Assembly (NCBI RefSeq): GCF_025526975.1
Contig: NW_026515680.1
Location: forward strand, 620,001 to 684,000
DNA from: Fimicolochytrium jonesii
Taxonomy: Eukaryota
Length of the DNA stretch: 64,000 bases
Reading direction: 5' to 3'
A program made the translations under genes and the position numbers. Every line of letters begins with the position of its first letter. The stretch's first letter is position 1. Below the pieces are notes generated by a model that saw nothing but the letters and a program-made list of their open reading frames with translations, was not told where the DNA came from and did not search any database. This document shows, piece by piece, positions 6,009-55,718 of this stretch.

Positions 6009-6220
6009 GAATTTGATGCTCGATGGACAAGTGCTGATGCACAGTGTACAGTACATAGATCGAAGTGTGACTGCGTCCACGCCGTCTCCCAGGGTGATGT
6101 CACAAGATACTGTCAATCCACGCGTTCTCAGGTTCTCTCCCCCCCCCCCCCCCCCCCACCAGAAGGCCGCGTACGGGTTAACCGATCCTCCTGCTCCTCC
6201 TCGAACTTGGACAATAACCA

Positions 6221-12700: not shown

Positions 12701-13001
12701 GGGATCGGGGGCGAGAATGGCGCTCCCATTGTACCTTGAAGAGGACGGTTATGATTGCAGCGGCATGTCGACACCGGCTCGCCTGCTTTTCGTTCGAAAG
12801 GACCCTGAAGAAAAAGTCCACTTTGGAAAGTCACGCCTGCATCTCCTGCATGGTACGTACCCCGCAGTCTGCCCCGCAATGCAAAGCTGGAGGGACTGTA
12901 CCAAACAACCCTCTAACCTCTAACTGACCTATACCTTACTTTATCAGCCAACTACTATACCCCCCGGCGTCAACCTACAAAGCCGCTGCCCATGCCTGCC
13001 G

Positions 13002-22597: not shown

Positions 22598-24779
22598 TCA
22601 ACTTACCGGAAAGCCAACACCCGCAAAAAACGCCGCCCGGGCATCGAGCACGGCGGCGGCTGGTGCAGCCGCACCTGCGTACTGTTGCCGGGGCTGCTGG
22701 TGAGGAGGGGTGGTGGTGTCGGTGGTGGTGGGGATGGTGGTGTGGGGGTGTGCGGGGGTGGAAAGAGGAGGAGCGATCGCTGGCGCCCATCCCCCTTCTG
22801 GATGAGGAGGAGGAGGGTCCGGCGGCGGAGGAGGCGGCGGAGGAGGAGGACGACGAGGACGAGGAGGCGGAGGGACCGGCGGCGGCGGAGGAGGACGACT
22901 ACGACAATGAGGGACCGGCGGCGGCTTTGAGGTTTGCATTTGGGCCGTCATTGCCGCGAGGCGTCGCTCAAGCTTGCGCGCCCTCTCCGCAGCGCGTAGG
23001 ACCTGGCGCTTGCTCAGCTCCCTTTTCGCGACGCGCCCGTCGCGATTGGCGGCTTGGGAGTCCGTGGGCAAGCCGGCATCCGAGTACCTTGGCCCCGCGT
23101 ACGACTTTGACCGCCGGTCTTTCTTGGCCACGGTGGGTGAGTGTGCGGTGAGTGGGCGGAGGTTTGGGTGGAGAGGGTTGGGTGGATGGTGGGGGTGTAC
23201 CCACCGAGTCTCCAACCATACGCTGGTGTGTACCCACCCCAAAACGAGCCCAGCCGTTCCCCACGAAAGCAACCAAACGTTCACAATCTGCCACTTCAGC
23301 TCCCCTCTCCACAGCGCCTGTGGCAAGGCCAGCAGCTGAACATCCACCTTCTTCCCCGCCTCCAATGACGCCGAAAGCAGGCGGACCATGGTGAGAAACC
23401 CGACGGATCCCCACATGGACTCCCCGATGGGGACGTATAGACGCATAAGCGTGTACACCATGGCTGCAAGGTGAACAGATCCTTGCCATTCCACAAAACG
23501 CAATGCGTGGAAAGGATTTATCCGCCAGCCCCAACCCCACATATGACCCATCTGACGCTGAAGAAAGAGGTTGGTGGTGAATTTTCAGAGCCGTCAGAGG
23601 TACTACGAAAACTGAGGAACAACATACCAGCGCTCCCCTCACACCTCCCGCTTTCGCACCCCCCCCCCCCCCCCCCCACCACCCCCACCAATCGTCTCCC
23701 AACCGACTTTCCAGCCAAACCGAAAAGTCCGCGCATCCCAAAATGCATCGAGTATGTGTTTTCCTTCCCTTTCCCGACTTTGATAGTCCCCAGCGCCATC
23801 CGTCCCTCTTCGATCTCCTATTCGCTGTCATTATTGATTTGGTGATGTCTTCCTGTGGTGAGGAATGTGAATGAGACCTTCTGACCGGCCGATATGAATA
23901 GTGCGGGGGGTTGAGAAGCGGGTGCGCGTGACGAGACGGCGCAAGTCGGCGGGGTCGGGGCCGCTGGATGAGGAGGCGTGGGTGGGCAGTTGTGACGAGA
24001 GTATGGAGGCGATCTCCGTTGGGGGGCGGCAGACGCCCCAGTGCCTTGGCCGCGAATCCTTGCGTGTCAAAGTCGGGCGTCGCGGTGCGCTTCACCTCCT
24101 CCGCGTTCGACTCGATTAGTGCGTTTTCCATCTCGGCGTCAATGTCGATGGCAGAGACACCAGCTCCGACACCGACATCCATGTATCCGGCCTTGCTGGC
24201 ACCAGCAATGTTTCCACAGCTCGCGAGACCGCTGGAGCATTGCTTGTTGACCGCGGAGAGGGCAACAGATTCTGGGTCTCCGGCATCGAGCGCACCCATA
24301 CGCGACGTGGTCACAGCGGCTCCGACACCGACATCGATGTATCCGGCCGTGATGGCACCAGAAATGTTTCCGAGACCGCTGGAGCATTGCGTGCTGAGCG
24401 CGGAGAGGGCATCAGATTCTGGGTATCTGGCGTGGAGCGTACCCATAGGCGACGTGGCTAAACCGTTCTTTGGCTTCGCCGGTGTTAGGTTGTCGTGTCC
24501 GTAGTTGTACTGCCCTTCGTTGACGCTCTCGCTGATCTTCTCATCGTTGCAATTGCCGTCGAATGGAGCCGTGGCGTGCTTGCAAGGGGGGAGGCTGTGG
24601 TGGTGCGGGGCGGGGAGTTGCTGTGGATGATGTTGGGACGGGTGGTGTCGATGCTGTTGCCTCTTCGACTCCTTCATGAAGGCCGCGAACATCGATGCTG
24701 TTGCCTCTTTGACTCCTTCATGAAGGCGGCGAACAAGAGGAACCGTTCGGTATCTTCTTTGAAGCTGATGGCAAGCCAC
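22598..24779 (-). CDS. Hypothetical low-complexity/membrane protein region (gene model unresolved)
   Basis: Overlapping long ORFs (603 and 317 aa) with hydrophobic segments near 23230-23510, poly-Pro stretches, and an AT-rich tract at 22250-22310 that could be a 3' end. Confidence 0.3.
24161..24432. repeat. Internal ~120-bp duplication, in frame in the minus ORF
   Basis: Copies at about 24161-24283 and 24317-24432 encode ES.ALSA...QCSSGL..GNI.GA..AGY.DVGVGA twice. Confidence 0.85.
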
Positions 24780-26419
24780 TGTGAATCTGTCGGAGTAGGA
24801 GGGATAGCTTTTCTCGACCTATTGGTATCGTGCCGCATATCCGGGAATGCGGCGGCAGCTACGTGTGGAGATGTCGGTTCGTATGCGGCGCGCGAGATCA
24901 GGCATCATCGTTTCGTGCGACACTTCAGATAGATACGGCGGTCTATGTTGGTTTGGCGGCATGTACATCATCGCTTGTGGATGCTGGTGTGGTGCGGGCA
25001 TTGAGTACTGTGGTGTAGGATCTGGCATGCCGGGGGTCCGGGATCACAGCAACCATATGAACCGTTTCCTGATGTGCTATATGATCTTGGTAATTGTATG
25101 CAGGAGGGGCCATTCCTCGAGGTATTTCGGACGCGAAATTTGCCACTGGACCCAGCGGAGCAGGATGCACAAATTCCTTTGGCCGGTCAGGTTGAATATC
25201 GTGTCATGGCAACGGATGTTGGTGGTGATGCTGTTGATGCTGGTGCTGATGCTGGGGATCGTGGAGACTGATATGCTGTGATGGGTTCGGATGCAGTGTT
25301 AGTCCTAGGGACGCTAGTGTCGCACTCAGAGGCGTCAGCTCGGGGATGACGGCCAGGGTATCGTGGGATGAGAGCGTGGTAGGGTGGCCGGCGAGGTTTG
25401 CGGCGAAGTTTCCGTCATCGCCGTCGTTGTCCGTCTCGGCGTACTCAAAGTTGGGTGGCATCTTGTATGATGCAGAGGAACTGAGATGAAGCGAATGCAC
25501 GAAGCTCGGAGGTATGGAATGAGTCTGGAAGCTAGTGTTAGGTGTCGAAGTACTAAGATCGTACAGCGAGCGTACGGTAGAGCTCACCCTAGCCCTAGCC
25601 CAAAGCGACCCGCATCACCCGGTAGAAGACCTTGCTTGCTCATCGGTCCTTGGTAAACCTGGACTGCACTTAAGAAACATATGATGAACTCAGATGAACT
25701 CGGGAGTTGTGTTCGATGAGCTTGCTTGATCACTCTTAACGAGTACATATTCAGCTTAGACCATGTCCAGCACTGTGTTGAGAGCGTTCACATCCTGTTC
25801 GGTCTAAGGCTACGTCATGTATATCGCTGATACGCCCTCGTCCAGGCTATATCAGGGATGGAAGCCGGTATGAGTAGGGGTCGAAAGTCACAACGAGAGA
25901 ACGTCAAAGAAAGATGTACCTGCGGATCAAGACGAAAAAGGTTGAACACAGCTTCCGTCTTCATCTGCAACTCCATGAGATTTGTTTCCAGAGTGCGCTG
26001 GGTTTCCTGCTGTTCTGAAAGATCCGTCGTATGCTGCTGGCCTGAGACTTCTTCACCCTGTTCCAGAGCTACGATACAAGACCTGGTATTGGCGAGATCC
26101 ACCGTTTGCCGGCTGAGCGTGGATTGCTGATCAAGCAGTTTGGACCTAAGACCCAGATGGGTGAAGTTAGAAAGCAGAGTCACATCACGCAGGCGGAGGT
26201 GGTGCGTGATGTGGCTCTGCTCCTTAACTTCGCCGATCTGGATCTTGTTGCTAGCTATGCCATTCTCGAGGGTTTGAACAGTTTCTTCGAGATGTTGCGC
26301 CCGTACACCGTTTGTACCATGTACCGTCCGTGTCCTTGGATCTGGAAGAAGAATCCAGTAAGAAAATGGAAGGACGATGATGACAACGAACCGACGATGG
26401 TGAGACTAACAGTCAGTTT

Positions 26420-28342: not shown

Positions 28343-31300
28343 ATGACCATTACAGACACTCGTCCAACTGTTCCCGCCGCTGGCAACCGCAACCCTCTCG
28401 GCGCCGGCGGTCTCTTCTCGCTGCTTACCGTATCGTGGCTCAGCCCACTCGTTAACCTCGGCTTTGAGCGTCCTCTCGAGCTGGAAGATGTCCCGCCGCT
28501 CGGTCGAGGTCTGCAGGCCGGCCCTCTCGCTTCGAAATTGGACGTCTACTGGGACGAGTTGGCCCGTTCTCAGGGTAGCAGCAGCAGAGGCACACACAAA
28601 CCGCCGAGCTTGTTGTGGCATATTGCCAAGGTTGCGGGAGGTGCATGGATGCTGTCAGGTGTCGGCGTCACTCTCGCCGTGGCTTGTGAGCTAGCAAGTG
28701 CTGTCATTCTGCAGCAGCTTGTTATGGTCCTTGCTCCCCACGGCTCGGACACGTTCGTGTGGATCGACTCGGCTGCGACTCTCGCCGTGACCCTGTTCTT
28801 GCTGCAACTGGTGCGCTCAGCGGCACGCTCGCTGAAGTCTTCCTTTGATATAGTGGTTCGACTGAACTGCCAGTCTCTGCTGACGGTACGCCATTATTGA
28901 ATCATTCGATGAGACATTCCGATCAGTTTCCTAACATCCGTCATCTCCACAGGGCGTTATCTACGAAAAAGCCCTCCGATTACACTGCTCCGAAACGCAA
29001 GAGTACTCCGAGGGCCGCGTCATGAACATGATCAGCGCGGATGTGAAGGACATCTTTGCCTCGGCTTCCGATCTGCATCTCGTCTGGCTCACTCCGGCTC
29101 AACTTGTGGCGACGCTGATCTTGCTGAATCGCTTGATTGGATGGTCTATGTGGGTCGGTATTGGATGCATGTTGGTCCTCATGACCATCTTGATGGCGTT
29201 CGCTCCGGTTTACGAAAGATTTTGTGAACTCTTTCTCGAGCATGAAGATACCCGCCTCAATAAGATCCGCGAAATGCTTTTGGGTAAGAGCGTGGGCAAC
29301 GGGGTCCTCACCAGAGAGTCGCTGGCCGTACAGGCCAACTCATGGCTTCCCGTCCGCTTACAGGTATCCGCATGGTGAAACTCCGCGCCATGGAATCAAT
29401 CTTCGCCAATGAAATCAACAGCATGCGTGACAAACAAATCGACGCCCTAAAAAGCAAAGTCGGCGTCAACACCTTCGCTTGGACATTAACAGCGCTCATC
29501 ACAATCATCATGCCAGTCACGTCATTTCTAGCGTTCGCTTCTCGATCGGATGGGACGTTCTCCGCAAGCATCATCTTCCCCGCGCTGGCGCTCTTCAGCG
29601 CCCTCGCTGAGCCGTTGAACTTTTACCCGGGGATGTTGACGGATGTTTGGAAACTGCGGGTGTCGTGGGCCCGTGTCGCTGGGTTTTTGCGTGCGCGTGA
29701 GGTTGATCCTGTTCGCAAATCGGTGGACAGCGAGAATCCGTATGATGTTGAGGTCGTCAATGGTACATTCACTTGGGCGGCGGCGGCAGCGGATTCCGGA
29801 GAACCATCCGAAACGGATCCGTTGCTATCATCTGAAGCCCGTCCTGCTCCCATCTTGAAGGGCGTCGACGTCTCCATACCCTCTGGAGCACTGATGATGG
29901 TTGTTGGAGCAGTCGGCTCAGGAAAATCGTCGTTCCTCTCTGCGTTGCTGGGCCATATGGTTCAGATATCTGGCGAGGTGAGCTCGCAAACTGGTTTTTT
30001 GGGCGCGCCCACTCGTACCAACGCTTACATAGGATGTTACATCTTACAGACAAAGATGAACGGCTCGACCGCTTACGCGCCTCAACAGCCGTGGATTACT
30101 ACAGGGACAATCAAAGACAACATCGTTTTCAACGCAGCCATCAACGACGCAAAGCTCAAACAAGTCATCGAGGCTTGCTGTCTGGAGAGTGATTTAGGGC
30201 AGATGCGAGCCGGATTGGAGACCAGTATTGGAGAATTGGGCGTGAATCTGTCAGGCGGGCAGAAGGCCAGGGTGGCTTTGGCTAGGGCTGGGTATGCGGA
30301 TGCTGGTATGAGTCGTGGTTTCCCGAAAAAGTTTCAGTGTGGCTGCCCTACTGATCTGAACCTCCAACAGATATCATACTCCTGGATGATCCGCTCGGCT
30401 CGCTCGACCCGGTCGTCAGTCGGGACGTTTTTGCGAAATGCATCCAAGGGGTACTTGCTGGCAAAACTCGAATCCTCGTTACCCACCAGCTCCATCTCCT
30501 CCAACATGCGGATCATATTATTGTCTTGAAGGAGAACAGTATTGCGGAGCAGGGCACGTACACGGACCTCATGGCAGCAAACGGCACTCTTTCCGCCCTT
30601 GTGAAAGATCATCAAGTGGACGACGCCGCACCAGCTTCTTGCGCACCCGAGATCTTCAACGCTGAAGACGTCCCGGAAGCTTCCGCGGAAGGAGACGACG
30701 ACTTCCAAAAAACCGAATCCCGAATCCGTGGCCGCATCAGCAAAGCCCATCTAATGGCGTACATCCGGTCCATCGGCGGCTGGAAGATGGTCAGCGTGAT
30801 TCTGATGTCGGTGTCTGTGAAACAGGCGGCGTCTGTTATGGCTGCTGTTTGGCTCGCGTGGTGGTCTGAGAAGCATTTTGCGGATTTCACACAGGGTGAT
30901 TATTTTGAGGTTTATGGAGGGTTGGCGGCTGGGCAAGCTGTTTCTATCAGTACGTATCAGTTTCGGCTTCTGTTTCAATCGTTTGCCCGGTTCCGAGGAT
31001 TTATCCCCCTTACTTCCTACAGGTCTCTTCCTCGTCGTGGTCTACTACGCCGGGTTCCGCGGCAGCAAATACTTCCACCCGGCCGCCCTCCAAAACATCC
31101 TCAGGTCGCCCCTCTCCTTCTTCGAACGCGAACCCATCGGCCGTATCATGAACCGCTTCTCGGGCGACCTCGACACTATCGACGATGACCTACCGTCCGA
31201 GCTACACCTCTTCCTCACCAACCTCTTTGACCTCCTCGGCACGTTCGCCATCCTCACCTGGGTATCCTATTGGATCGTCGTCATCGCGGTTCCCATTGTC

Positions 31301-32717
31301 GCGTGCTACTGGCACCTCCAGCGGAGGTATCGCCCCGTCGCGCGTGAAATCCGCCGTATGATGGCCATCCAACGCTCTCCACTCTTCGCCTACATCTCCG
31401 AATCCCTCGCGGGCGTGAACGTGATCCGCGCATTCTGCCGCGAAAAGGATTTCATCGCGACGCAGAGACGGCATTTGGACGCGAGTTTGGAGGTGAATGT
31501 GATTCGTGCGGCGTGTACGGTGTGGTTGGAGTTTCGCTCGGAGTTTCTGGCGTCGTTTGTGACGTTGGGGATGGCGCTTGTCGGGGTGTTGTCGGAGGCG
31601 GCGGCGGGGTTTGTGGCGCTGGCGTTAGTTTATACGGTGGCGTTGAATACTAGTGTGCAGGCGTTCGTCAAGTAGGTATCTCTCATTCCTCCTTTGAAGC
31701 TCTGGTACCGTTCTCACACAGCTTACTCCCATCAGGTCAAGCGTAGATCTCGAAGCAGCCCTCGCGGCCGTCGAACGTCTCTCCGAATACGCCACCGATC
31801 TGATCCCCGAACCACCTGCCAACCTACCCACCGATCCCACATCAACCGAGTGGCCCACCGAGGGCAAGATCGTCGTAACGGACCTCAAAATTGCATACCC
31901 CAGCAATCCCGACGCACCTGTTCTCAAAGGTCTCACCCTCATCATCAACCCAGGCGAGCATATCGCAGTGGTTGGACGTACAGGATCCGGCAAGTCGACA
32001 TTCATGAGCGCCTTGTTCAGGGTCGTTGAATACACCTCTGGTTCAGTGACCATCGACGGCCGCGATGCCAGCACTCTCGGTTTGAATGTCCTACGTTCAA
32101 GTATCCAGATAATACCCCAGGACCCGGTTCTGTTCGAGGGTACCATCCGCTCCAACCTCCTGCTCGGGCATGCAAACTGGACCCATCATGCGTCCATCAC
32201 CGATGCCGACATCTGGTCCGCAATCCGGCGCGTCGGGCTCGGCAAAATGGTCGAAGACCTCCCCGACAAGCTCGACCACGCCGTCGAATCCGGCGGTCGG
32301 AGTCTGTCATTCGGTCAACGGCAGCTGATTTGTCTTGCGCGAGCGTTGCTTGAACGGCCGAAGATCTTGGTGCTGGATGAGGCGACGGCGAGTTTGGATG
32401 CAGAGGCGGATGCGATGGTGCAGGATGTTATTGCAAGGGAGATGAAGGGAGTTACGGTTATTTCTGTTGCGCATCGACGTGAGTTTTCTTTTGTGTTGGC
32501 GAGCCCCATGTCGATGTACTTACTCGCCCCATTTCCCTTTCGTTCAGTGCACACGATCGCAGGCTTCGACCGGGTCCTCGTCCTTGACGATGGTGAAATT
32601 GTCGAATCAGGAACTCCCACGGAATTGCTGAGAAATTCGGAAACTCATTTCAACCGTCTTGCATCCGCCATGGGCATGGCGAACCGTGAGGCGTTGGTGA
32701 GGGCTGCACAGGCGTAA
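28343..32717 (+). CDS. ABCC/MRP-family full-length ABC transporter (Yor1/Ycf1-like), about 8 exons
   Basis: Lasso motif FSLLTVSWLSPLVNLG; NBD1 GAVGSGKSS, LSGGQKARVALARA, LDDP; TMD2 FFEREPIGRIMNRFSGD; NBD2 VGRTGSGKST, LSFGQRQLICLARAL, LDEATASLD. Confidence 0.96.
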
Positions 32718-33056
32718 TGCGTGAGCAGGACTTGCGTCTTTTTGCGATCTGCAGTCATAGTGAAAGTCGGTGGCGTTCATCATCGTGCTGGAAGGTTGAT
32801 TCGCGTTTGACATTGATATATTTATCGGACCCCGTAGAGTACATAGATCATATAGATGTAGAGAACCTTAGATCTGGTCGTAGACTGTTTCGCATGTTCA
32901 TACGACCTTGAGATTCGTTGTCATTTCGAAACAAATGGAAGAGTGAACCGTCTATACGCAGTATGTGCATGTTCGCAGATATGTCACATAGGGACTTTTA
33001 TCCCAAATCCGACTCGTCGAAACCCGACTCGAGCGTCACAATTCTGATACGGTCCA

Positions 33057-36000
33057 TCAAACGTCCAATTCTTCCTCCGATGCAGGCGCTAGCGCTGCCG
33101 TTTTCAGAGGCGATTCTGCGCGAGACGCCATCGACCGCGCTTTGGATGTTGCACCCCTCCCTCTCGCAAGATCCAGCTTTCTCACCCACTCCTCAAGCGC
33201 CCTCTGGCTTTCCATTTGCACTCGCAGTCGTTCACCGCCCGGCAGTTGCAGCAGCAAACTGTTGTCGGTCGTATCCGCTTCCACGCTAACGCTGTCGATG
33301 ACGTAGAATCGTCCCTCTTTGGTGTCGATGTCGGTGAAGTCGATGTAGTTCTGGACCACTGATATCTGAACAGCTCGCCAGACGAGCGCAGCATCGGGTT
33401 TTACGGGGAGGTATTTGATTTTCTGGTAGATGCTTTGCGATTTTTGAGATTTCTACGGAAGAGTTTGAAGACCGACCAGATGAGATGATTGCTTTTTTGA
33501 TGATGGCATATGTCGACAGAAGCCTATCCATACTCACCAAAGCAATCGCCTTGATTTTCGCTTCCATGGCGTCCTCGATCTCGCCTCCAAGACCGTAGAG
33601 CAGCCAAACCTTGTAACCAAGGAATGATGCGGTCATAGCAGCCGCAACGACAAACGTCACTGCGGTTCGCAGCGCGAATTGCGCGATCCCGTTCATCATG
33701 TTTGGAAGTAGAATGCCGGCGGACAGGATTCCCGTGATGCCCATGTTTGCAGCGTTCACCAGCAGCAGCCTATCTTCGAGTGCAGGAACAGGCCAGCCCA
33801 CTTTGATGGTCTCGTAGGCGAGCTTGCACGCCGTCAGCAGGATTGTCCCCGTGATGATCATCAGGCAAGTTATGAAGCCGATCTGCTTCTTTTCGGTTCC
33901 CCAGCAGATCCAGAAGCGATCTTGCGATGCGTATGTCAGTTGGGGAGTCGGCGCCTCCACGACTCTCCATAGGGCAACCAGAATCTACATCGGAAGGAGA
34001 CATAATGTTATGCGACGTGATGAAAAGATGAGTCCAGCGTCCGCCTGCTGCATTGGATACGTACGACGAAAAGAACTAGTGTTGCGGCAAGTGCACTCGC
34101 TGTTACTTTCTTGAAAGCCATAGAGAAGTCCGTCCCTAAGGCCATCTTATTCTTTCGTCGGGTATAATGTCCCCATGATTTGAGCATAAGACATCTGCGC
34201 GGCAGAATGGGTGAGCAACACCAACGCGGTTTAGCGGTACCTTCGAAATTAAATGCGAACTTACGAGGATGTCAGCCCGAAGGAGCAGGGAAGCATCCAT
34301 ATCTGCACCCGGCATGATAACGCAGTTGGCTCTACGGTGTCGGTGATCGGCAGTGCGAAGAGGCAAATGAGGCCGAGGGCTAGAACCCTGTGAACGATCA
34401 AGATACCTCGGATTAGTCATTGGCTATCCGGCCGGCAGATTCACGAGCAATCGACTCACATATTCAAGTTCCGCGTGGTGCCCTGAATCGCCTGTCCATT
34501 GCGCTTCATGAACAGCAGTCCCGCAAGCGCCAACACCGTCAGCATACAGATACCAGAGATCACGATGACCACCATAGATCCAGCGCTCGTGATTTTGGTG
34601 TTGGCCAATGCACCTTCGAGAACTTGTACACCCATCGTTTCCGGTGACGTTAACGTCTGTTGCAGCTTTGCAGACGCCACCTTCAGCTGCCGGTAGTCGA
34701 GGAATGCTCCACTTTGCGCATCCATTAGAGAGAATTTCATGTACACAGTGTCCGCGCCATCTCGTCGAGCTAGGTTCGCATGCCCAGAGGTCCAAAAATT
34801 GCGATAGATGACATTGTACGTGTTATTGTAGACCTCCTTGATTTTGTTGACCATACGATCGCGTCCGTCCACGGAGTAATCGAAAACGTCGGATGAACCC
34901 GTAAAGATCGGGGTCTGAGAGTCAAAGGAAAAGGTGAGACTGTCGTTCTCGCTTTTTCTCATTTGGCAAGCGATGCCCTCGTAGGCGGTATCGGTGCATG
35001 TGCAGTTCCCGTCCGATACGCACACGCCGGCCGTGGATGAACAACCTAACGAGCATTGGGGAGATCGACATTCAAGTTCGGGGGTGCCTGACGCAGCTAG
35101 CAGTTTGCGAGGCGGATCGCAGCGGGAGATGGTGAGCGACCGGAGTAAAGGGGAGAACTCGGAAATGTCGGTTCCGGAATCGTCGACCAATTTGATCCGG
35201 TAGGTTCCCGGACTCCCGAACACTCGTACATCTACAGATTCGGAAGCTGGTCAACCTCAGATCCGTATGAACGCGCAGAGCAAATCGAACTCACTTTCGA
35301 AGGTCAATTTCCCATTATCGACAACACCCATGGTCGGACCATACAGGGTAGCCACCCTCGAGATTACCTCATCCCCGTCCATATCAACCAACGCGATCTT
35401 CACAACCGCCGCAGTCTCCTGCTCGAACCCAATGAACTGCCCATAGGCGTCATATGTCGATATCCCGAAGATTGGGAGAGTGTCTCCCGGTAAAAGGATC
35501 ACGTCATCCCAGTTCCCAGACGGGACGAACGTAGCGGATGCAGTTCCCCGGTCGGGTAGCAGCGGCGCCGAGTTATCTGCATATGTCACAGAGATGAAAT
35601 CTAAGGATTTGCGGGCTCCGGTGTACCATGCGCCGCCGTACTGGAGCGCCGTGTTTTCGGTGAAGGAGACGTTTTGAACCACGAGGTTCGGCTGGCTGGT
35701 GAAGCGCTCGATGAAGAGGGCGCCGCCGTTGTTTGCAGTGTTGTTTGTGAATGTGCTGAACGGGGAAATGAATGAGTGATGCGAGAGAGCCTTGGGGGAT
35801 CTGGGACCCGTCTGCTTACCTGTTAACAATGGTGATGCTGCACCGTCCAGCGTTGACGTTGCCGTAAATCGCCCCCCCTCGACCTGCGGCTGTGTTAGAA
35901 TTGAACGCGGAGTTTGTGAAGCTTGCCGTGCCGTCGCAGTCACTGAGGATTGCACCGTCGTTTGACGTCCAGTTCTCTACGAAGGCGAGGGTTGAGTAGA

Positions 36001-38551
36001 TCTTCAGCACATAGGCGTCCGGGACGCATCGTGAAACACCCACCGACGAACGTGCACTTATCAACGCTGAAACTGCTGCCTGAGCCCAGCTCTAGGAGCG
36101 ATGCGCCCCTGCAGTGCTGGAACGAGGATGCTTCCAATTGGAGAGTGGATAAGGAACCAGAGAAGATCGTGTTCGCTAGCCCCTCGAAAGTGACCCCTTG
36201 GATCAACGTAGTCGGCCAATCCTGATCGGTTTCTGACCGTTCTAATCTGAATAGCGGTTCGCCGGATGAAAGACCTAGCGAAAACCAAAATTAGCATTTG
36301 CATGGCATTTCAATCATATGGCCTGCGAAAAGTGCGTTACTTACGGGCGAGAATCGTGTCTGTAATCGTCAGATCACCCATCTCGAAAACATGGAAGCAA
36401 TGCGCTGCACATCTTTGATCTTCCGAGAGCATGTCAGTCAGAAAGAGGTTTGCAAAATCCGTATCCCGAATTCACACAAGAACCAACCATCGATCGTCAC
36501 AGAATCCAGAACAGCCTTCGACGTGCCATTCAATTGCAAGATGGCTGTCGTCACGTTGATATGAAGATCAGTTGTGATCTTCGAATTGGTTAAAATGAGC
36601 ACTCCCTTTGACGTTATTGCGAACAAATATGGCATCGCAGGGCTTCCCGGGAGCACCGCCTGGTTATCTACGTAGCATTGCATCAGCGACGGGTCGTCAT
36701 GCAGCCACCCTTCGTCACCGAACTTACTGGTCATTAGCGCGTCGTCGATCGTGAGCGTTCCGAGCACGTTCGTTTGCCCGACATTTCCTACGGACGTGAT
36801 GAACGGAATGCCACCCGAATAGTCGTTCATGCTTGCCAACGTACCAGATGAAACGAAGTTTGATATCTCGACCGTCGCCAAACTTCCAATGAATATCAAG
36901 TCCGTCGGTACGGGTAGGATCGCATCCATGAAGTTTGAATACACCGGTTGAGCGCCAGGGAAGTTTACCGTACTATCTGACATGTTGGGGGCATGAGATG
37001 AGCGCTGGTTTCCACTAGCGAGAAGCAATCAGTTTAGAGAAGGCTCCTACCGACGATGGATAAGCCATTGATGATATTCGTGCCGCGCCTTATGTCTAGC
37101 ACACGCCCGCTCCAGCCTAATTGTACGATGATCAGCACCAGGGAAACAGCAGACGGATCAGTTCCATCGTCGTTTGAGTACCTTTGATTGTCACCGCTGA
37201 CAAGGATCCCCCTTCCGATGACTGCATGCTCAGCACAGAACTGCACCAATGCTTGGGGTTCGACAAATCGTTCTTTTCGATGTGCACATTGGTCAGGGTT
37301 GTCTGACCGGATCCGGCTGTTTGCTGACGGTGGGACGTAGATTAGATACACAAGATGCGTAGGATGACTTCCGGAAGAACGATCCACTCACAGTGATCAC
37401 CGAAGCACCCTCCAGACATAGGCTAAGAGTCGGCAGGCAGGGTCAGCTCAACATTTCGGTCGCCGCGGTCCGTGAATCGACAGCAAACGTGGCCTTACGG
37501 ATCTAAATGGCCAGTTAAACCGGGTTGGGGAAGAGAGACCCTAAAACCCTATCACATGATATACAACTCACTTATGATGACAATATTTGTCAAATCGGTG
37601 GATACGGTTCCGGATCGCGCTTGAAAGATGGAGGGGCCTAGGATAGGTTAGGACTTGCGAATCCAATGCTGCCTAATGTGAGGTGCATCGGCTTGGGCGT
37701 ACCTTTAAAGTATAGATCGCTAATGAATACCATAGCGTTCGGGAGGGTTGGGTAGTAAAAGACGCCTGCGAGGTGCATGCATTTCAAGTTAGATCAACCC
37801 GGCAGATTCATCCGTAGGTTGGCACCTAGCTTACCTTGCAAAACTTTGCAGCCAGTGTACGTGACGGTATCTGACAAATACACGAACCAGTCCAAATACA
37901 CGAACCAGTCCAGTTCGAGTTTAAGGGACAGAACATCGACCATGCTGTCGAAGTCGGGTTGGGGGCCCCCTGCGTCGTGTATTTAGAATTTTTGAATTAT
38001 AGGAATCGTAAGATGGCTTCCACTTCCATGTCATGCTGTGATATACCAGCGAAAGTGACATTGTCAAACGTCAGAGACACCTCCAACTCGGGGTTGCTGA
38101 ACATAAATAAGAAGGTGGAGGGATCGGAGGATTGCTCAGGCAGCCCGAAAACGACGTTCGAGAATGCAATGGAAGGATCGTCGCCAATGATCGACATTTG
38201 AACCACGGAACCCTCTACCAAAGGGCCGCGCACGATCTTCGGCCCGCCGAGCACATTCCAAGACTCTTCCGTTCCTTGAATCGCCAAATTGACGGACAAA
38301 CCATACTCGGCTTGATTCAAAGGATAGTCTCCGGGGGAGATGAGGTGAATTCGTTTGTGGCCTCCATTGGGGCCGAGCAGAGCTTGATTTATGGCATCGT
38401 CCAGCGTCCCCCAAGGGTTTGATTGCGTTCCATTCCCGCGAGACTCAGGTGCATTGCGGTCCACGTAGATGTCGATGTCGCCTCGAACTACAGGTAGAAG
38501 CGACACGCACAGAAGCGCAACCAACGTAACACACAAACTTCTGCGTTGCAT
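33057..38551 (-). CDS. Divergent class C GPCR-like receptor: signal peptide, right-handed beta-helix ectodomain, EGF-like, SEA-like stalk, 7TM, PH-like tail (many exons)
   Basis: Signal peptide MQRRSLCVTLVALLCVSLL; YVD...GNGTQSNPWGTLDDAI; F..NTA..GGA(I/L/W)(Y/F) repeats; EGF-like CSLGCSSTAGVCVSDGNCTC. The spliced TM2-TM4 read VLALGLICLFALP...SCRVQIWMLP...LMLKSWGHY, and TM5-7 lie in ORF 33286-33960. The tail ends ...ESQRALEEWVRKL. Confidence 0.8.
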
Positions 38552-38962
38552 GTCGAGGTGTCTAGAAAACTCAGTAAGGCGGCTAGTTTGAGGTTTGTAC
38601 TTGTATGTCCAAGACGGCATCCAGGGTTTGCTCCCTTGCAATCGGCAGACGGATTATGGGAGGGAAAGGTACAGGGCAGGGAGCTTATCTTCCTGGACTT
38701 CTGTTTTCAACATAGTTCAAAGCTCCGACAATGCCTTGCGTCGGCCATTGTTTCGATGACTTGAAAGCATCGACAGAAATCGACAGCGCGTTTGTGGAAT
38801 GTTCCATGTCTCCCAAATGGGAACCGTAAACGAATTACAGAACGGCTTACTTGAATGTACTCCGTCCTCCCCAGCAGAGCTCGCTCGGCCCGCATAGTTC
38901 TCGATGACCGCGTCTAAAAGGCAAATGGGAAATATGTTAAGCGTACGACTGCAGAGGCACCA

Positions 38963-39061
38963 GGATTCGTTTTGGACTGCCTTTTTACTTACCCCGGATT
39001 CGTTTTGGACTGCCTTTTTACTTACCCCGAATTGTTTGGGACTGCCTTTTTACTTACCCCC
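38963..39061. repeat. 33-bp tandem repeat x3 in the shared promoter region
   Basis: GGATTCGTTTTGGACTGCCTTTTTACTTACCCC twice, plus a diverged third copy. Confidence 0.92.
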
Positions 39062-39104
39062 TGACAATTCCACCTCCATCTGCCAGACAAAGCGACACTT
39101 TACA

Positions 39105-42100
39105 ATGTACAACGGCACTACAGCGCTGAGTGTGCTTTGCGTTCTATACCTGCTTGCATGCCCGGTTCTTGGTGAGTGCATATTGGATGTGCCGGCGATC
39201 CGGGTTGACACTAATCGACGTCCCAATGGCATCCGCAGGGATTGACGTGAACCTTCTGGTGGATGGGACCCTGTCGGCGGATGCGCCGCCCTCGTTTATG
39301 AGCATCGGAAACGGTAAGAGTCGGCCCCGCCACCGCATAAGAGTTGAGACTACCTGTCATTGACATTTGCATCCTGACAGCTTGGGAGTACGCAATAGCT
39401 CAGGCGAAAGCGCAACAACCAACAAATCCGACCATCACATTAACCTTCCGTCCGGGCTCCTACCAGATCCCACTAAACAGTACATCAGCCGAGAGACAGT
39501 TTGGAAATTGCACGCTCAGACATGTGGCCGAAACGCCGGGAACCGTGAGTCTGATTGCGCCGTTCCGCCAAGCGCGCCAGGACGCTATATCGACGATCAC
39601 CAGCCTGAGCGAATCGAAGTGGGGCAAAAACACTACGTTGGAGTTCACTGGCCTCACGGTATCCGTCCCGGATACGAAGCTCTTTGCGTTCAAGCTTGAA
39701 GGCCTTAATGCCCGTTTGAACATCACAGACTGTACCTTCATTGGTAACGTAGACGCTGGAACGCAATTTCATGCGAACGTCAACTTCTGCAATAATTGCG
39801 GCGCTTACATTCGAGATCGAACACTCTGCAGGAGGCGGGAACTACTCGCGAGCCTATTTTCGTGTTGGATCACCAGACATCGCTCGTCAGGCTAGTCTGA
39901 TTGTGACTCGATCCGTCTTCCGGAGTAAGTCACGCGATACAGGTTCCCCTCCAATTTCGAGATCGATCATCACTGACTAATGAGGAATCAGACATTCAGC
40001 AGGACATCGCAGTATACGGTTATACAAGCGTTACTGTGAAGGGAGGCGGGACCGACACCGGCTACAGATGGTTTAATACGCTTTTCAGGGCGGAGGCTGG
40101 AAACGTAACCATTGAAGATTGGACAGTCACCGGAAATGGCGACTCGGCGGCACCCCTAGTGTCTGTTCTGCAACACAATCAGACGCCAGGAAGGAGGGAG
40201 GCAGCTTTCTGGTATTCTGGATTAATTATGAGGAATGTGCTCATCAAAGGAACGAATTTCGGAGGGCCCGCCTTTCGGTTTGAAGCAGGCTACATTCGTC
40301 TGTTCAATGTAACTATCAGCGATTGTACCACGTTCGGCGGGATTGTCGGCACCACCCGCCTCTTGCAAAGATCCCTCATGCGGATTTATGCTGACACGAA
40401 GGTCACCATTGACGGAATGCGTGTCACAAGTAAGAAGGGAGGAGAGGTTCCAAATAAGTTCATTCTGAAAAAGACTCTCTCTCTGCCAGACACTAGCTTG
40501 GAGACCGGGGTCGACTTTTGGCAATCAATGATATCGATGGCCATGACGAATTCATACTTTGGAGGTAGTTTTGCGGCATCGCCGGGACATCAGTGGGCGC
40601 GATCTAGACACCCGCACTTCGATCTTACAGGGAATACGTTCCAAAGATGCTTCGACACCACGGAGAACACCCGGATCAACCTGACCGGGGTCACGTTTGG
40701 TGAGCGGCGATTGTCCCTATTGCTCGTCTATTGCGCATGACATTAATCCCTTCCAATCCCGTCTCTCCCATGTGGCAGAACGAAACAACTGCAACTTCAT
40801 GCTAATGTCCAACACGACCACACACATCGAGAATTCAGCGTTTATAGGTGCGCGACCGATAAGAGTCCCGGTGCATAGCCTCGTCATCCTGCGTCTGACT
40901 CTCAGGAATGAATTGTACAGACAACACATACGCAACCGGATCGCCCTTCTTTGATATATCGGCATCGGAATTCGTCGCCACGAACAGCACTTTCACCGGT
41001 GCGTAATACGGTCCTGCTTCCCTGTTCCTTGATCACCAAGCACATGCTCAACAGATTTGTATCATCCCAGGCAACCAAATCGGACGTAACTCCATGTTTT
41101 CTGTCAAGGAGCGCTCTTCACTGATACTCGCCGGGTCCGATATCGCCAACACCTACGCATTTCGGAGCGTGCTGTCCACAGACGCCTCGAGTGCTGTCGA
41201 GATCAAGTCCACGATCTTTCGTCGAAATGTCGCAGACCTCCGCGATTTGGTGAGCCTCAACTATGCTGGGAACATCAATGTCTCGGACAGCTCCTTCCTC
41301 GGTGAGTATCCCGGCCTCTCATTCCAGCCGTTGTGATCCTTAGGCTGATGGCTTCTGCTACCCCAGGAAACAAGGCACTGAGTGGAAACCTGATCAGAGT
41401 AGCAGCCGGTACAGGCCTAACGCTCAAGCGCTCCACATTTACCGCCAACGCCGGCTCCATCTCCATCGACGCTAGCGGCACCTTACGAATCCGAGATAGC
41501 ACATTGGAGAGCAACGGCCCGGCCCCGATCCTCTATTCCGAAGGCAGTCTAACCATCTCCGGCTCTACATTAACGAACAACTCGAGTCCCAACGGCGGAG
41601 CGATTTTGCATGTGCCCAAGAAGCAGAACGAGTACCTGATGGTTGATAGCACGGCTTTCGTCTCGAATGCGGCGGACGGCGATGGCGGGGCAATATATGT
41701 TGACGCGAGTGATTTTGATCCGTTGGTGTATAGCAATGTCACGTTTACGAACAACACGGCGAAGAGAGGAGGAGCAGTGTTCCAGTTGCAGAGCCAGTGG
41801 GCTAATGTCGGGTTCAACACGTCCGCGGGTTTGCGGATGACGAATAATGTCGCTGCGTGGCAAGGTACTTCCGTGCGACCCACGTGGAAGTTCTCGGGGA
41901 CATGAATCGAGGTCAAGATTGACGTCGAGACGCACGGATTTGGAACTTACGCTTTGCTCATCTCCCACGCAGGGAACGATCTGGCAACAGGAATCGCGTC
42001 CCTCGTTGTGGTCAACAAAACATCCTTCTCAAGCTTATCAGGCGCCTACCTGGACGACATCACTGTACGCGCTTTAGACGGTGAGTGTCTTCCGACCCAT

Positions 42101-44705
42101 CCAATACGCACCACCTCGGAATAACCGAACCATTTCACCAGCCTACGGCAACACCTTCCGCTCCCCCCGTTCCGCCATGCTCAAAATCGCCCTCACCCTC
42201 AACGGCACCGGCACCCTTGTCGGCTCCACATCCGGTTTCATCCTCACGGGCGAGGCTACTTTCAGCCGTCTGCAGCTGTACGCACCGGTTGGAAGCCAGA
42301 CGCTGCACGTGAAGCCCACAAGCGCGTCGTACGATCCGGAGCTGTACCACGCGGCCGTGACGCTGAATACGCTGCCGTGCGCGACGAAGGGGATGGAGGA
42401 GAAGGTGGTGGAGGCGAGTCCGTGGGCGGCGTGTGTGCTGTCGGTGTGTGCGGGCGGGTGTTTGTCGGATTATGGGTATTGTCGGGATAACTTCTGCATA
42501 TGCACGGCGGCGGATCGTGAAGGTTGGTTCAGCGTCGTGAGCTTTGAGACCTGAGTCCGCAACGTCCTCGGACTGATGGCCACTGCCTGACCAACCCCAA
42601 TAGGGATCAACTGTGGCCTCAAAAAAGGCAGCCGCGACGCCGTCAGCCTAACCCTCCCCTCCACCTGGGTCCCCAACGCCGTAAACCGAGACAAACTCCT
42701 ATCCTCCATCACAGCCAGCCTGAACGGGACAGCTACGGCCGAGTTCCGCTCCTACACCAGCACCCAATCCGCCAACAGCACGATTCAACGACGCGGCACA
42801 TCCACTAATGTCTTTACATTCGCCCTGCTTGATACGCGCGGGCAGTATATCGAGAGCAAAGCGCTGGCGACGTACGGTGCCGCTACCGTCAATGCGCTTC
42901 CGGGAGTTGTGAGTGGGAGCGTGAGCGTGAACACGGTGGAGTCACCCAAGGTCGTAGTGGCGAGCAGGGATGCTGTCAGTATCGTCTTCATGGTACTTGC
43001 GGCGGTATCCATCGCCACGTCAGTTGCGATTTCTGTGTTCTTGGTGGTGTATCGTGATGATAAGGCGTAAGTTCTGGGTAGTGTGACCACTCAATCGTCT
43101 TCACATACTCATGATCTCTTCCTCCCTGCAGAGTCAAAGCGTCGTCAATCCTTTTCAGCCAACAGATCATCTTTGGCGTCACGCTTGGCTACGCTCTGAT
43201 TTTTCTCGATATCGGCGAGCCAACGAAGGCGACCTGCATTTCACAAGTATGGGTTGGCGGGCTTGCTTTTACACTCGCTGTCGGGTGAGTGTTGGTAGCC
43301 GAAGGGCGGTGCCATTTTCCAAAATCATTGGTTGATCATGGGTGTGCAATCTGGGGCGTTATCAGAAACCTCATCGGCAAAAACTGGCGCATCTACAAGA
43401 TCTTCACGACGACGGGCAAGTCTAAGGCGGTGAAGGACAAAGATGTACTGATCCTCGTCATGGGAATCATGCTTTTGGAAATCGTAAGCTAGGATGCTTA
43501 CTCTCACGCGCGATGTCGTTCCGAAAACCTGCTGACAGGTCTTCATTTGCATAGGCCATCGACGCGATATGGACAGGACTAGCCCCACTCGAGCCAGTAC
43601 GTGCTCACTCCCATTCTCCAGCCTCAACATCGTTTCTCAACACTAACATCCCACCGCAACCAGGTGCTAAAATCTAACGACTCAAGCCGATTCTACATGT
43701 GCGACTCCGATGCGGCGGCAAACTCGGCCATGACGATTATTGCGCTGACCTACAAAGTGATTCTTTTGCTCATCGTCTGCGGGCTGGCGTTTCTGACGCG
43801 AGGCGTGGATGTGCTGTATAGCGAGAGCAAGGCCATTGGGGTGTCTTCATGTAAGTGTGATGTCCGGTTCTCGATCCTCATTTATCCCTGCTTGACGGAT
43901 CTCCTCACCCCTTTCTACAGATACGATGCTCCTATCCGGCCTAATCATCATCCCCCTCGTCTTCCTCCCCCAAACAACCTCCAAATCCTCCTTCTACCTC
44001 AAATCAACCGGTATCCTCATCTCAGGCCTCGTAACAACCTTCTCCCTCTTCTGGCCCAAACTCTGGCTCGCCGTCTTCACCGACATGACTACACGGAGCA
44101 TTTCCCGAACGTCCAAGCGGCGCGGGAGCAGGAAAGCGCGATCGCAGACGGGCGGCGGGCAGAGAGGGTCGATTATCTCGGGGGAGAGCGCGCGGTCCGG
44201 CAGCACCACGCAGTACCAGGGGCAGCCGACGGAGGAGGATACGAGGGTTGTGCAGACGCCGGCGGACTGCTCGTTGTATGTGAGGAGTGGGCTTGTGGGG
44301 AGGTTTCAGGCGGGCGAGATTTGGATGGATATCGAGACGAATATTATTTTCGTTTGGCGGGTGTCAAAGGAGGGGGTAAGTGGCTATGGATGCTTCCTTG
44401 TTTTGGAGGAACGAATCAACCACATCTCATCTCATCCACTCTTCTCTTCTCTTCAGACGCGGGGAGATATCCCAACTTCAGGCGTATCCTTCCGCCTACA
44501 ACATCTGAAACTCTGCAGCTGGGACCAATCCGACAACTTCCTGCTACTCCAAGCCGGCGAAAACAGCTTACAGCTGACGTTCGCCAAGAGTGGGGTACTG
44601 CGTTCGTACGTGGCCGAGATTCAGGCGCGGATTGGTGAGTTTGAACTTTCGCAAGTGGGGATAGTGACGGCCAAAGCTGACCCAAAGATTTCATTTGCGT
44701 TTTGA
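39105..44705 (+). CDS. Class C (GABA-B/7tm_3-like) GPCR with beta-helix ectodomain, EGF-like, SEA-like stalk and PH-like tail (many exons)
   Basis: Signal peptide; NGGAI/DGGAIY/RGGAVF repeats; EGF-like CAGGCLSDYGYCRDNFCIC. The 7TM carries VKASSILF, TCISQVWVGGLAFTL, KNWRIYKIF, LAFLTRGV...YSESKAIG and FWPKL, all hallmark class C motifs. Confidence 0.9.
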
Positions 44706-54437: not shown

Positions 54438-55718
54438 TTATGTTTCACGCATGTCCTCTTCCGCAGTTTGTTGGTGGAGCCATTGAAGGATTTCCGGCAC
54501 GTTTGCGTGGATGCGGCCCAATCGGATTTGCTTTGGGGTATATCCTTCCTTTCGATGTGTGAACAGCCACTGAACAACTGCTAGATCCCCCTTCTCAATC
54601 GCGGCGTCCATGGCGTCTTTCGTGCATCCCTCCTTTCTATGGAAATGCAGGAACTTGACCACGTTGAGGTGACCCCCTGCAGCCGCTTTATCCATGGCTC
54701 GCGTGGTACAGCCTTCAGCTCTGTGGAAATGCAAGAATTTCACCACTTCAAGGTGACCTGAGCCAGCAGCCAAATCCATGGCCAATGCTGTACAGCCCTC
54801 CTTGCGATGCGTGTGGAGCCATTCGACTACTTCGAGGTGACCGTTTGCAGCCGCCCAATTCATCGCATATGTCGTACATTCGTTGCCATGGGTGTGGAGC
54901 CACTTAAGAACTGATAGGTGACCAGACCTAGCTGCCCAGTCCATCGCCCGGTACGTGCACCCTTCCGAACGGTTATCGTGAAGCCATTCAATCACCGAAA
55001 GGTGGCCATTGTCAGAAGCATAGTTCATTGCTTGTTCACTGCAACCTTCCAATCTGTTTTCGTGAAGCCATTGCGCTACCGCCAGATGCCCGTTTCCGGC
55101 CGCATGGTTCAATGCTTCCCGCGTGCACCCTTCCAATCTGTTTTCGTGAAGCCATATCACCACGTTAAGGTGTCCCTGTGCAGCTGCCCAGTCCATCGCG
55201 TCTGCACTGGCCATCCCTTCCGGCCCGTGGTCATGAAGCCAACGGACTATGGCGAGGCGACCAGCGGCGGCTGCCTTATCCAGTGCCACGTAGGGATCTG
55301 CTTCGAAGTTAGGCCCGCACGAGGGCACAAGGTGACGTTGAGTGACAACCCGCCTCAGTTCGTTCGGGTACTTGGTGTGGATCCATTGCGCGATATCGAG
55401 ATGGTCGTTGTCCAGAGCGACTTCGATAGCGCTGGCTTCTACACACCCGGAGATACTGTACTTGCACAGCCAACGCAACGCTTCTAGGTTGTTCGATCCC
55501 CATAAGTTCGGGCAGGCATAAGCTGGGGAAGAGAGGAGCTTCCTTTTGACTGCCTCTCTCTTGAAAGCGATTGCATAGTGCACCGGAAGATATGAGAGGA
55601 TATGATCGAATATTTCGACGGGAAATCGTGGAAAGTTGGGAATGCCGCCGGTGGGTTGGCCTTTATCGGACAGCAAACGTCTACTACAGGCCTGTTGATA
55701 TGGCTGGGGTGGATGCAT
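54438..55718 (-). CDS. F-box plus short ankyrin-repeat protein, intronless
   Basis: FPVEIFDHILSYL (F-box-like), then about 9 repeats of CT..AMD.AA..GHL.VV.WLH..R.EG. Confidence 0.9.
   Translation of the reverse strand: MHPPQPYQQACSRRLLSDKGQPTGGIPNFPRFPVEIFDHILSYLPVHYAIAFKREAVKRKLLSSPAYACPNLWGSNNLEALRWLCKYSISGCVEASAIEVALDNDHLDIAQWIHTKYPNELRRVVTQRHLVPSCGPNFEADPYVALDKAAAAGRLAIVRWLHDHGPEGMASADAMDWAAAQGHLNVVIWLHENRLEGCTREALNHAAGNGHLAVAQWLHENRLEGCSEQAMNYASDNGHLSVIEWLHDNRSEGCTYRAMDWAARSGHLSVLKWLHTHGNECTTYAMNWAAANGHLEVVEWLHTHRKEGCTALAMDLAAGSGHLEVVKFLHFHRAEGCTTRAMDKAAAGGHLNVVKFLHFHRKEGCTKDAMDAAIEKGDLAVVQWLFTHRKEGYTPKQIRLGRIHANVPEILQWLHQQTAEEDMRET

What the first reader, a model, noticed from the sequence alone, without database searches (positions are those of the whole stretch)
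33590..34520. Functional asymmetry: the minus-strand receptor has lost all three canonical class C intracellular motifs
Seen: the plus gene has KNWRIYKIF (end of TM3), YSESKAIG (ICL3/TM6) and FWPKL (TM7). The minus gene has KSWGHYTRR, LEDRLLL and LGYKV at the equivalent places. It still keeps the TM3 Cys/Trp (SCRVQIW), the ECL2 Cys (RFWIC), open frames and clean splice sites. Known: these motifs contribute to the ionic lock and G-protein coupling in class C receptors, and only GABA-B2 couples G protein in the GABA-B dimer. Inference: one subunit signals and the other is a ligand-binding or allosteric partner kept under selection.
Basis: partly seen in the sequence, partly recalled or inferred. 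Interest (0 to 1): 0.75.

Follow-up and report, generated by a model that had tools for sequence, protein, structure and literature searches.

The report
Paired chytrid receptors, one likely silent
Two back-to-back genes of a chytrid fungus encode related cell-surface receptors that appear to stay neighbours in related fungi; one keeps the residues that engage G proteins, while the other has lost them but keeps its off-latch, so they likely work as a two-part receptor in the manner of the brain's GABA-B receptor.

Summary
The minus gene (38551-33057, 1425 aa, open) keeps the lock residues K3.50, E6.35 and K7.51. It lacks the G-protein contacts R3.53, I3.57/F3.58 and probably the 6.33 aromatic: 0 of 3 in 13 of 13 members of its clade, 3 of 3 in 9 of 9 partners and in 102 of 120 other class C-like proteins. 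Loss of P7.50 is ordinary (62 of 109).

The head-to-head partner (39105-44705) is GABA-B2-like. The two types are neighbours in 11 of 12 checkable cases in six genera, including three paralogous pairs (10 judged by accession and contig length). Both carry a beta-helix/EGF ectodomain, known from gut fungi. The minus tail has a PH fold.

Best reading (0.5): a linked heterodimer with a non-coupling subunit. Pairing, ligand and expression are untested. Five literature searches found no such fungal pair. The scan noted a similar idea for an unrelated placozoan pair.

The parts
33057..38551 (-). Minus gene, 18 exons, 1425 aa: signal peptide, beta-helix ectodomain, EGF-like repeat, stalk, class C 7TM, PH-fold tail (the putative non-coupling subunit)
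   Evidence: open frame; last exon starts at 33452; orthologues
33600..34584 (-). 7TM domain of the minus gene (exons 14-17)
   Evidence: the orthologue's model has seven helices and the ECL2 hairpin; fold matches class C receptors
34179..34181 (-). K3.50, ionic-lock lysine, kept
   Evidence: Lys in 13 of 13 clade members
34155..34172 (-). Positions 3.53-3.58: Gly for R3.53 and Arg-Arg for Ile-Phe; G-protein contacts lost
33769..33783 (-). Positions 6.33-6.37: Ala for the aromatic at 6.33; E6.35 kept; Arg for K6.37
33745..33750 (-). A6.44 and N6.45 (the partner has Y6.44 and T6.45)
33610..33615 (-). Y7.50 (Pro lost) and K7.51 (kept)
33177..33422 (-). Cytoplasmic PH-fold domain of the minus gene
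   Evidence: model, Foldseek, Atlas features; no Pfam PH hit
35296..35974 (-). PMP-repeat (beta-helix) part of the minus ectodomain
   Evidence: Pfam Chlam_PMP above cut-off in exons 12 and 13
34966..35055 (-). EGF-like repeat
   Evidence: Pfam EGF_Tenascin E 0.006, below cut-off; six Cys in the sequence
38552..39104 (.). 553-bp spacer between the two start codons, with three 33-bp tandem copies at 38963-39060; likely a shared promoter (inferred)
39105..44705 (+). Plus gene, 19 exons, 1425 aa, same architecture, canonical GABA-B2-like 7TM (the putative signalling subunit)
   Evidence: orthologue P0008 hits GABA-B2 at E 3e-25
42969..44065 (+). 7TM domain of the plus gene with K3.50, R3.53, I3.57/F3.58, Y6.33, E6.35, P7.50 and K7.51
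44265..44633 (+). C-terminal domain of the plus gene, probably also PH-like
   Evidence: aligned to the minus PH region by HHalign; Atlas score 0.77, a lead only

Best explanation
The minus gene encodes an intact, conserved class C receptor that keeps its inactive-state lock residues but lacks the G-protein contact residues, and it likely works as the non-coupling subunit of a heterodimer with the canonical receptor encoded head-to-head beside it. Shown: both frames are open; the residue pattern is fixed across each clade; the two types are neighbours in this window. Inferred from accession order and contig length: they are neighbours in related fungi and were duplicated as a unit. Inferred by analogy with GABA-B: a shared promoter co-expresses them; an extracellular ligand (unknown, perhaps a polysaccharide or another polymer, given the beta-helix) would rearrange the two ectodomains and bring the TM6 helices together, with partner Y6.44 meeting minus N6.45; only the plus 7TM would engage a G protein. 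The minus subunit would supply ligand contact, allosteric control or trafficking, and its PH-fold tail would bind lipid or a signalling protein.
For: (1) Selective loss. The triad R3.53, F3.58, aromatic/Leu 6.33 scores 0 of 3 in 13 of 13 minus-type proteins, 3 of 3 in 9 of 9 partners and in 102 of 120 background proteins; only 5 of 120 have one or none. The lock pair is kept in 11 of 13, 9 of 9 and 113 of 121.
(2) These positions are G-protein contacts in GABA-B2 (PMC8222003). Human GABA-B1 likewise keeps K3.50 and D6.35 and has Trp at 3.53 (both subunits have the lock, PMC8163086).
(3) Linkage in 11 of 12 cases where both types of one assembly were named: this window, Powellomyces, four Geranomyces assemblies, two pairs each in Phlyctochytrium arcticum and Gaertneriomyces, and Spizellomyces.
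(4) The paralogous pairs group apart from this pair in both 7TM trees (bootstrap 99 and 98), as expected if the pair was copied as a unit.
(5) Complementary TM6 face: Y6.44 in 9 of 9 partners and 0 of 13 minus-type, N6.45 in 0 of 9 and 13 of 13. In active GABA-B these two residues hydrogen-bond across the subunits.
(6) Conservation: 7TM identity 65/53/46% to three orthologues.
Against: A shared promoter or slow rearrangement alone can keep neighbours together, and no baseline for ordinary neighbours in these genomes could be computed. Ten of the 11 linkages rest on accession order and equal contig length, not on DNA; four are one species. The Thoreauomyces genes lie on separate contigs of 10.9 and 14.1 kb. 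No partner was identified for P0003, P0006, P0024, P0008, P0021 or P0154.

The 6.33 call depends on register: anchored on the upstream Pro-Ala-Leu, as in GABA-B2, the minus gene would keep Leu there, and the model is unreliable at that spot (pLDDT under 50). The Y6.44/N6.45 pattern was noticed after the fact, each clade counts as one event, and Y and N are each common in the background (87 and 72 of 124 rows). GABA-B1 itself can couple G protein in some settings (bioRxiv 2020.04.21.053488). Nothing identifies a ligand or says which subunit binds it. The background set is unnamed and was fetched with the minus-type profile.
Confidence: 0.5

Rival explanations
1. The minus protein is a G-protein-independent scaffold receptor, working like GPR158/GPR179. 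It stays locked, recruits an RGS protein or another effector through its fixed basic ICL2 patch, ICL3 Gly-Trp-Pro or PH tail, and is only co-regulated with its neighbour.
For: GPR158 holds the same K7.51-E-K3.50 cluster and signals by recruiting RGS7-Gbeta5 (PMC8611064, passages). RGS7 was identified in chytrids (PMC3971589, passages). New intracellular residues are invariant among the close orthologues.
Against: It does not by itself explain why paralogous copies keep a canonical partner beside them, nor the complementary Y6.44/N6.45 pattern.
Confidence: 0.2
2. The minus protein is an inhibitory or decoy partner: it binds the plus receptor or its ligand and holds the pathway off until released, like the restraining member of some head-to-head plant NLR pairs (analogy recalled; only a search listing seen).
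For: It keeps the residues of the inactive state and lacks those of coupling; linkage is conserved; its 7TM changes about 1.4 times faster than the partner's.
Against: The sequence cannot tell a helping partner from a restraining one. N6.45, fixed in the clade, belongs to the active-state interface of GABA-B.
Confidence: 0.14
3. The minus receptor still couples a G protein through a rewired surface (basic ICL2, Leu in ICL3), perhaps a different G-alpha.
For: In the alternative register Leu sits at 6.33. Basic ICL2 residues contact G-alpha in GABA-B2 (PMC12499500, passages). GABA-B1 can couple in some settings.
Against: R577A abolishes GABA-B signalling. R3.53 is present in 118 of 124 background proteins and in 0 of 13 minus-type, with no basic substitute among the residues listed.
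Confidence: 0.13
4. The minus gene is a decaying or neutrally drifting duplicate.
For: Lower 7tm_3 scores (46-75 bits against 133-173) and longer branches.
Against: Open 1425-aa frame; full-length orthologues in several genera; 65% 7TM identity to Powellomyces, like the partner's 67%; a clade with 100/100 support that includes paralogues; the losses fall on coupling residues, not on lock or disulfide residues.
Confidence: 0.03

Closest known systems
GABA-B receptor (GB1/GB2 obligate heterodimer)
   Same: Class C 7TM. The partner's best PDB match is GABA-B2 (E 3e-25). One type has the coupling residues; the other keeps K3.50 and the 6.35 acid but lacks R3.53, as human GB1 does.
   Different: Beta-helix/EGF ectodomain instead of a Venus flytrap; PH-fold tail; the genes are adjacent and head-to-head. 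The minus subunit also lacks I3.57/F3.58, Y6.44 and P7.50, of which human GB1 keeps F3.58, Y6.44 and P7.50. Not orthologous by any test made here.
Pectin-lyase-fold/beta-helix class C GPCRs of anaerobic gut fungi (PMC5168858, passages)
   Same: Large ectodomain with parallel beta-helix repeats, in a few cases an EGF-like domain, on a class C 7TM.
   Different: The passages seen report architecture only; the word 'dimer' does not occur in the main text. No linked pairs, motif loss or PH tail in what I saw. Supplements not read.
GPR158/GPR179 (non-canonical class C receptors)
   Same: No Venus flytrap; K3.50, E6.35 and K7.51 lock cluster kept.
   Different: They keep L/FxPK, have a Cache/PAS ectodomain and recruit RGS7; no linked canonical partner is described in the passages seen.
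Head-to-head paired plant NLRs (sensor/helper)
   Same: Genetically linked pair of paralogous receptors with divided labour (abstract starts in the search listing).
   Different: Unrelated proteins; analogy of genome organisation only.

Membership tests
Class C GPCR (7tm_3), minus gene | Seven-helix class C fold with ECL2 hairpin | tested here: met
   Model of the Powellomyces orthologue (mean pLDDT 58, low) has seven helices and the hairpin; all Foldseek rows listed are class C receptors, best E 1e-7
Class C GPCR (7tm_3), minus gene | Pfam 7tm_3 above the 33.5-bit cut-off | tested here: met
   Four of four full-length orthologues score 46-75 bits. The window's own TM3-end fragment scores 23.7; the whole spliced protein was not scanned. 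Two distant members fall below (P0027, P0028)
Class C GPCR (7tm_3), minus gene | TM3 Cys and ECL2 Cys (disulfide) | tested here: met
   C1086 and C1172; conserved in orthologues
Class C GPCR (7tm_3), minus gene | Ionic lock K3.50 with D/E6.35 | tested here: met
   Residues present in the window and in 11 of 13 clade members; the salt bridge itself was not measured
Class C GPCR (7tm_3), minus gene | R3.53 and Ile-Phe at the end of TM3 | tested here: not met
   0 of 13
Class C GPCR (7tm_3), minus gene | FxPK motif in TM7 | tested here: not met
   Pro absent; Lys kept in 11 of 13. Pro is also absent in 62 of 109 background proteins and in partners P0090 and P0064
Class C GPCR (7tm_3), minus gene | Activates a heterotrimeric G protein | not testable with these tools
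   needs an assay
GABA-B-type heterodimer | Venus flytrap ligand-binding domain | tested here: not met
   No ANF_receptor hit; PMP/beta-helix repeats instead. Not filed as a GABA-B member
GABA-B-type heterodimer | One coupling and one non-coupling 7TM | tested here: inconclusive
   The sequence pattern fits; function is inferred
GABA-B-type heterodimer | Obligate physical heterodimer | not testable with these tools
   needs co-expression and co-purification
GABA-B-type heterodimer | C-terminal coiled coil masking an ER-retention signal | not tested
   No coiled-coil analysis run; the tail holds one short helix and a PH fold in the model
Fungal beta-helix class C GPCRs (PMC5168858) | Beta-helix/pectin-lyase-like repeats, EGF-like domain, class C 7TM | tested here: met
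   Chlam_PMP and Beta_helix above cut-off, EGF weak
PH domain (minus tail) | Beta-sandwich with C-terminal helix | tested here: met
   Core pLDDT 78-88; the top Foldseek hits are PH-containing chains, best E 2.4e-4; Atlas 0.90 to PH clusters
PH domain (minus tail) | Pfam PH profile match | tested here: not met
   No PH family at E up to 1
PH domain (minus tail) | Phosphoinositide or G-beta-gamma binding | not testable with these tools
   needs an assay

The most novel reading that the evidence does not exclude
Chytrid fungi evolved, independently of animals, obligate two-subunit class C receptors: head-to-head gene cassettes that are copied as units, each pairing a G-protein-coupling subunit with a locked, non-coupling subunit, with beta-helix sensors outside and PH-fold domains built into the tails.
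Probability: 0.42. Interest if true: 0.78.

Novelty: new variant of a known kind. Interest (0 to 1): 0.6.

Why it matters
Asymmetric class C heterodimers are known from animals (GABA-B; taste receptors, recalled). A fungal version with a different sensor domain would show that division of labour arose again, and would say which 7TM residues are needed for the silent role (lock, disulfide, N6.45) and which only for coupling. The linkage also tells anyone trying to find ligands for fungal class C receptors which two genes to co-express; single-gene screens would miss an obligate pair. A PH fold in the receptor tail suggests a built-in membrane or G-beta-gamma link that my one search for it did not find described.

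Tried and rejected
Complex prediction of the 7TM-plus-tail regions of the Powellomyces pair gave no verdict (score 0.21, mark 0.34, alignments not used, controls not folded); it is no evidence either way.

No RNA holder was listed for 33000-42900, so expression and splicing were not checked against reads. No whole genome is held. The metagenome scan found no related locus (86 pattern matches, none confirmed), so dN/dS and gene orientation in relatives could not be computed. No VIA-align result was obtained. Binet et al. 2007 is not held.

Rejected: 'ionic lock lost'; P7.50 loss as a sign of silence; pseudogene; a recent inverted duplication of one gene (minus and plus types as one clade rejected, AU p 0.005 on 41 selected rows; long branches may pull).

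My first acceptor for the last minus exon (33422) was replaced by 33452, which matches the database fragment and the orthologues. The Mantel correlation of the two trees (p 0.004) is not used as evidence of co-evolution, since shared species history gives it too. The scan's own notes held no look-alike of this stretch.

Full report
OBSERVATION. Exon models built from window coordinates give two open genes facing away from each other: minus 38551-33057 (18 exons) and plus 39105-44705 (19 exons), 1425 aa each, with 553 bp between the start codons. They are 24% identical over 741 aligned positions (E 1e-38). A database protein identical to the last 334 residues of the minus model is labelled Fimicolochytrium jonesii, so the window is from a chytrid fungus and that annotation has the same TM3-TM7 splices. 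Both proteins have a hydrophobic N-terminus, PMP/beta-helix repeats, a Cys-rich EGF-like stretch, a stalk, a 7TM domain and a C-terminal domain.

REGISTER. Numbering is counted from GABA-B2 K574 = 3.50 and D688 = 6.35 (PMC9360005 and PMC11621567, passages). K3.50 lies 21 residues after the TM3 Cys in both genes. In TM6, BLAST, MAFFT and HHalign agree that the minus Glu matches the partner's E6.35 and the following Arg matches K6.37; the conserved Asn then falls at 6.45, ten residues on, as in GABA-B. In TM7 the Lys is kept and the Pro is not. K3.50, D/E6.35 and K7.51 form the inactive-state network in class C receptors (PMC8163086, PMC11437087, PMC8611064; passages). So the minus gene has not lost the lock residues. 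What it lacks are R3.53, I3.57/F3.58 and the aromatic at 6.33; in GABA-B2, R577A abolishes signalling and I581A, F582A and L686A lower potency 9-32 fold (PMC8222003, passages). Against this: an upstream anchor on Pro-Ala-Leu, which GABA-B2 also has, would put Leu at 6.33 and Asp at 6.35. The acid is kept in either register; the 6.33 loss is less certain, and the model cannot decide (pLDDT under 50 there).

IS IT UNUSUAL? A profile of five minus-type sequences found 145 proteins among 1.84 billion representatives. I counted on 13 non-redundant minus-type proteins (dropped: P0001, P0004, P0005, P0029, P0033, P0039 as self, near-copy or fragment), 9 partners (dropped: P0008, P0014, P0017, P0019, P0020, P0079, P0154) and 124 other, almost all unnamed, class C-like proteins. 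The triad R3.53/F3.58/aromatic-or-Leu 6.33 is 0 of 3 in 13 of 13, 3 of 3 in 9 of 9, and 3 of 3 in 102 of 120 background rows filled at all three columns. The lock pair is present in 11 of 13, 9 of 9 and 113 of 121. P7.50 is missing from 62 of 109 background rows and from two distant partners, so that third 'loss' carries no weight. The 13 proteins are one clade (100/100), so this is one ancient change kept since, not 13 events.

SELECTION. 7TM identity of the minus gene to Powellomyces, Geranomyces and Phlyctochytrium arcticum orthologues is 65, 53 and 46%, against 67, 64 and 69% for the partner; tree distances are about 1.4 times longer. New residues are invariant among seven close orthologues, including the Gly-Trp-Pro of ICL3 and Leu-Gly-Tyr-Lys of TM7. 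dN/dS could not be computed.

LINKAGE. Where both types of one assembly were named, they are neighbours in 11 of 12 cases.
- This window, by DNA.
- Powellomyces hirtus g01312/g01313.
- Geranomyces variabilis HDU88_006776/006777, KAJ3140494/495, KAI8589268/269-270 and HDU89_008896/008898.
- P. arcticum KAI9094675/678 and KAI9099526/529.
- Gaertneriomyces semiglobifer KAI8998271/274 and KAI8999157/160.
- Spizellomyces sp. g04258/g04259.
Nine of the ten database cases also share a contig length; the KAI85892xx case rests on accession order alone. The exception is Thoreauomyces, on contigs of 10.9 and 14.1 kb. No partner was identified for three minus-type (P0003, P0006, P0024) and three plus-type (P0008, P0021, P0154) named proteins; the searches were not exhaustive. 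Three of the pairs are distant paralogues, and they group apart from this pair in both trees (bootstrap 99 and 98), which fits duplication of the pair as a unit. Orientation in relatives was not seen; in one split case the partner's N-terminal piece lies next to the minus gene, which fits head-to-head. The two types are not sisters (AU p 0.005, 41 of 159 rows), so the pair is old, not a recent inverted copy.

TM6 FACE. Partners have Y6.44 (9 of 9) and never N6.45; minus-type proteins have N6.45 (13 of 13) and never Y6.44. In active GABA-B, Y6.44 of each subunit bonds N6.45 of the other. Only a mixed dimer could make this contact here. This was seen after the fact and is two clade-level events, so it is suggestive only.

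TAIL. The last minus exon folds into a beta-sandwich with a C-terminal helix (core pLDDT 78-88). The top Foldseek hits are PH-containing chains (ASAP1, Dbs, GRK2; best E 2.4e-4) and the Atlas places it at 0.90 with PH clusters; Pfam finds no PH. The partner's tail aligns to it by HHalign but is only a lead in the Atlas (0.77).

MECHANISM. Most likely (0.5) the two genes are co-expressed from the shared spacer and form a heterodimer in which the plus 7TM couples G protein and the locked minus subunit contributes ligand contact, allosteric control or trafficking. Open frames, residue pattern and adjacency in this window are shown; adjacency in relatives is inferred from records; co-expression, pairing, ligand and coupling are inferred by analogy. 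Rivals: a GPR158-like scaffold receptor (0.2), an inhibitory partner (0.14), rewired coupling (0.13; GABA-B1 can couple in some settings, bioRxiv 2020.04.21.053488, passages), decay (0.03).

KNOWN AND NEW. Class C receptors are abundant in chytrids (PMC3251606 and PMC12842992, passages), and beta-helix/EGF ectodomains on them were described in gut fungi (PMC5168858, passages). This pair is not a GABA-B member: it has no Venus flytrap. Searches for a fungal or chytrid class C pair or heterodimer (at most 20 rows seen of each) and for 7tm_3 with pleckstrin homology in fungi (no paper) showed no description; PMC3971589 has no 'pleckstrin' in its main text. The library lacks most subscription papers, and I read no supplements, where domain lists of these surveys might record the PH fusion. 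The scan's notes hold a similar idea for an unrelated placozoan pair (e1-7272203), not tested here and not used as support.

VERDICT. New variant of a known kind; interest 0.6.

Noticed in passing
window 34762-34767 (-) and 42789-42794 (+); stalk of relatives: Both receptors have an Arg-Arg site in the stalk about 60 residues before TM1. A [KR]R pair lies in that 75-residue window in 22 of 28 related proteins, against 33 of 244 other ectodomain windows (P0026 left out, too short). It resembles a Kex2-type cleavage site (recalled), so the ectodomains may be cut from the 7TM.
   Followed up: partly
window introns 34264-34195 and 34064-33985 (-); 43285-43365 and 43484-43554 (+): Two introns sit at the same aligned position and phase in TM3 and TM4 of both genes, pointing to common ancestry although the two types are not sisters in the tree.
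   Followed up: partly
proteins P0045, P0152 (unnamed): They also lack the coupling residues and form the sister branch of the minus clade (100/98); P0042, P0048, P0049 are sister to the partner clade (89/89). The pairing may be older than the genera named; their neighbours could not be looked up.
   Followed up: partly
window 37499-37502 (-): A predicted 4-nt micro-exon in the minus gene; with it the protein aligns without a gap to P0011 and P0005 by eye.
   Followed up: partly
window 37875-37912: An exact in-frame 18-bp duplication in exon 2 of the minus gene.
   Followed up: no
window 38963-39060: Three 33-bp tandem copies ending 45 bp before the plus start codon.
   Followed up: no
window 33057-38551; protein P0001: The database record found for the minus gene is only a 334-aa 'uncharacterized' fragment, and several partners appear split into pieces, which would hide these pairs from domain surveys.
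   Followed up: partly
window 29288-32717 (+): An ABC transporter gene with two ABC_tran and two ABC_membrane hits ends tail-to-tail with the minus gene.
   Followed up: no
window 6218-7033 (+), 11274-12173 (+), 12924-14864 (+), 22968-24818 (-), 54438-55736 (-): F-box, Josephin, PPR-repeat, weak thiolase-N and ankyrin-repeat hits; 40 of the 48 frames scanned had no Pfam hit.
   Followed up: no
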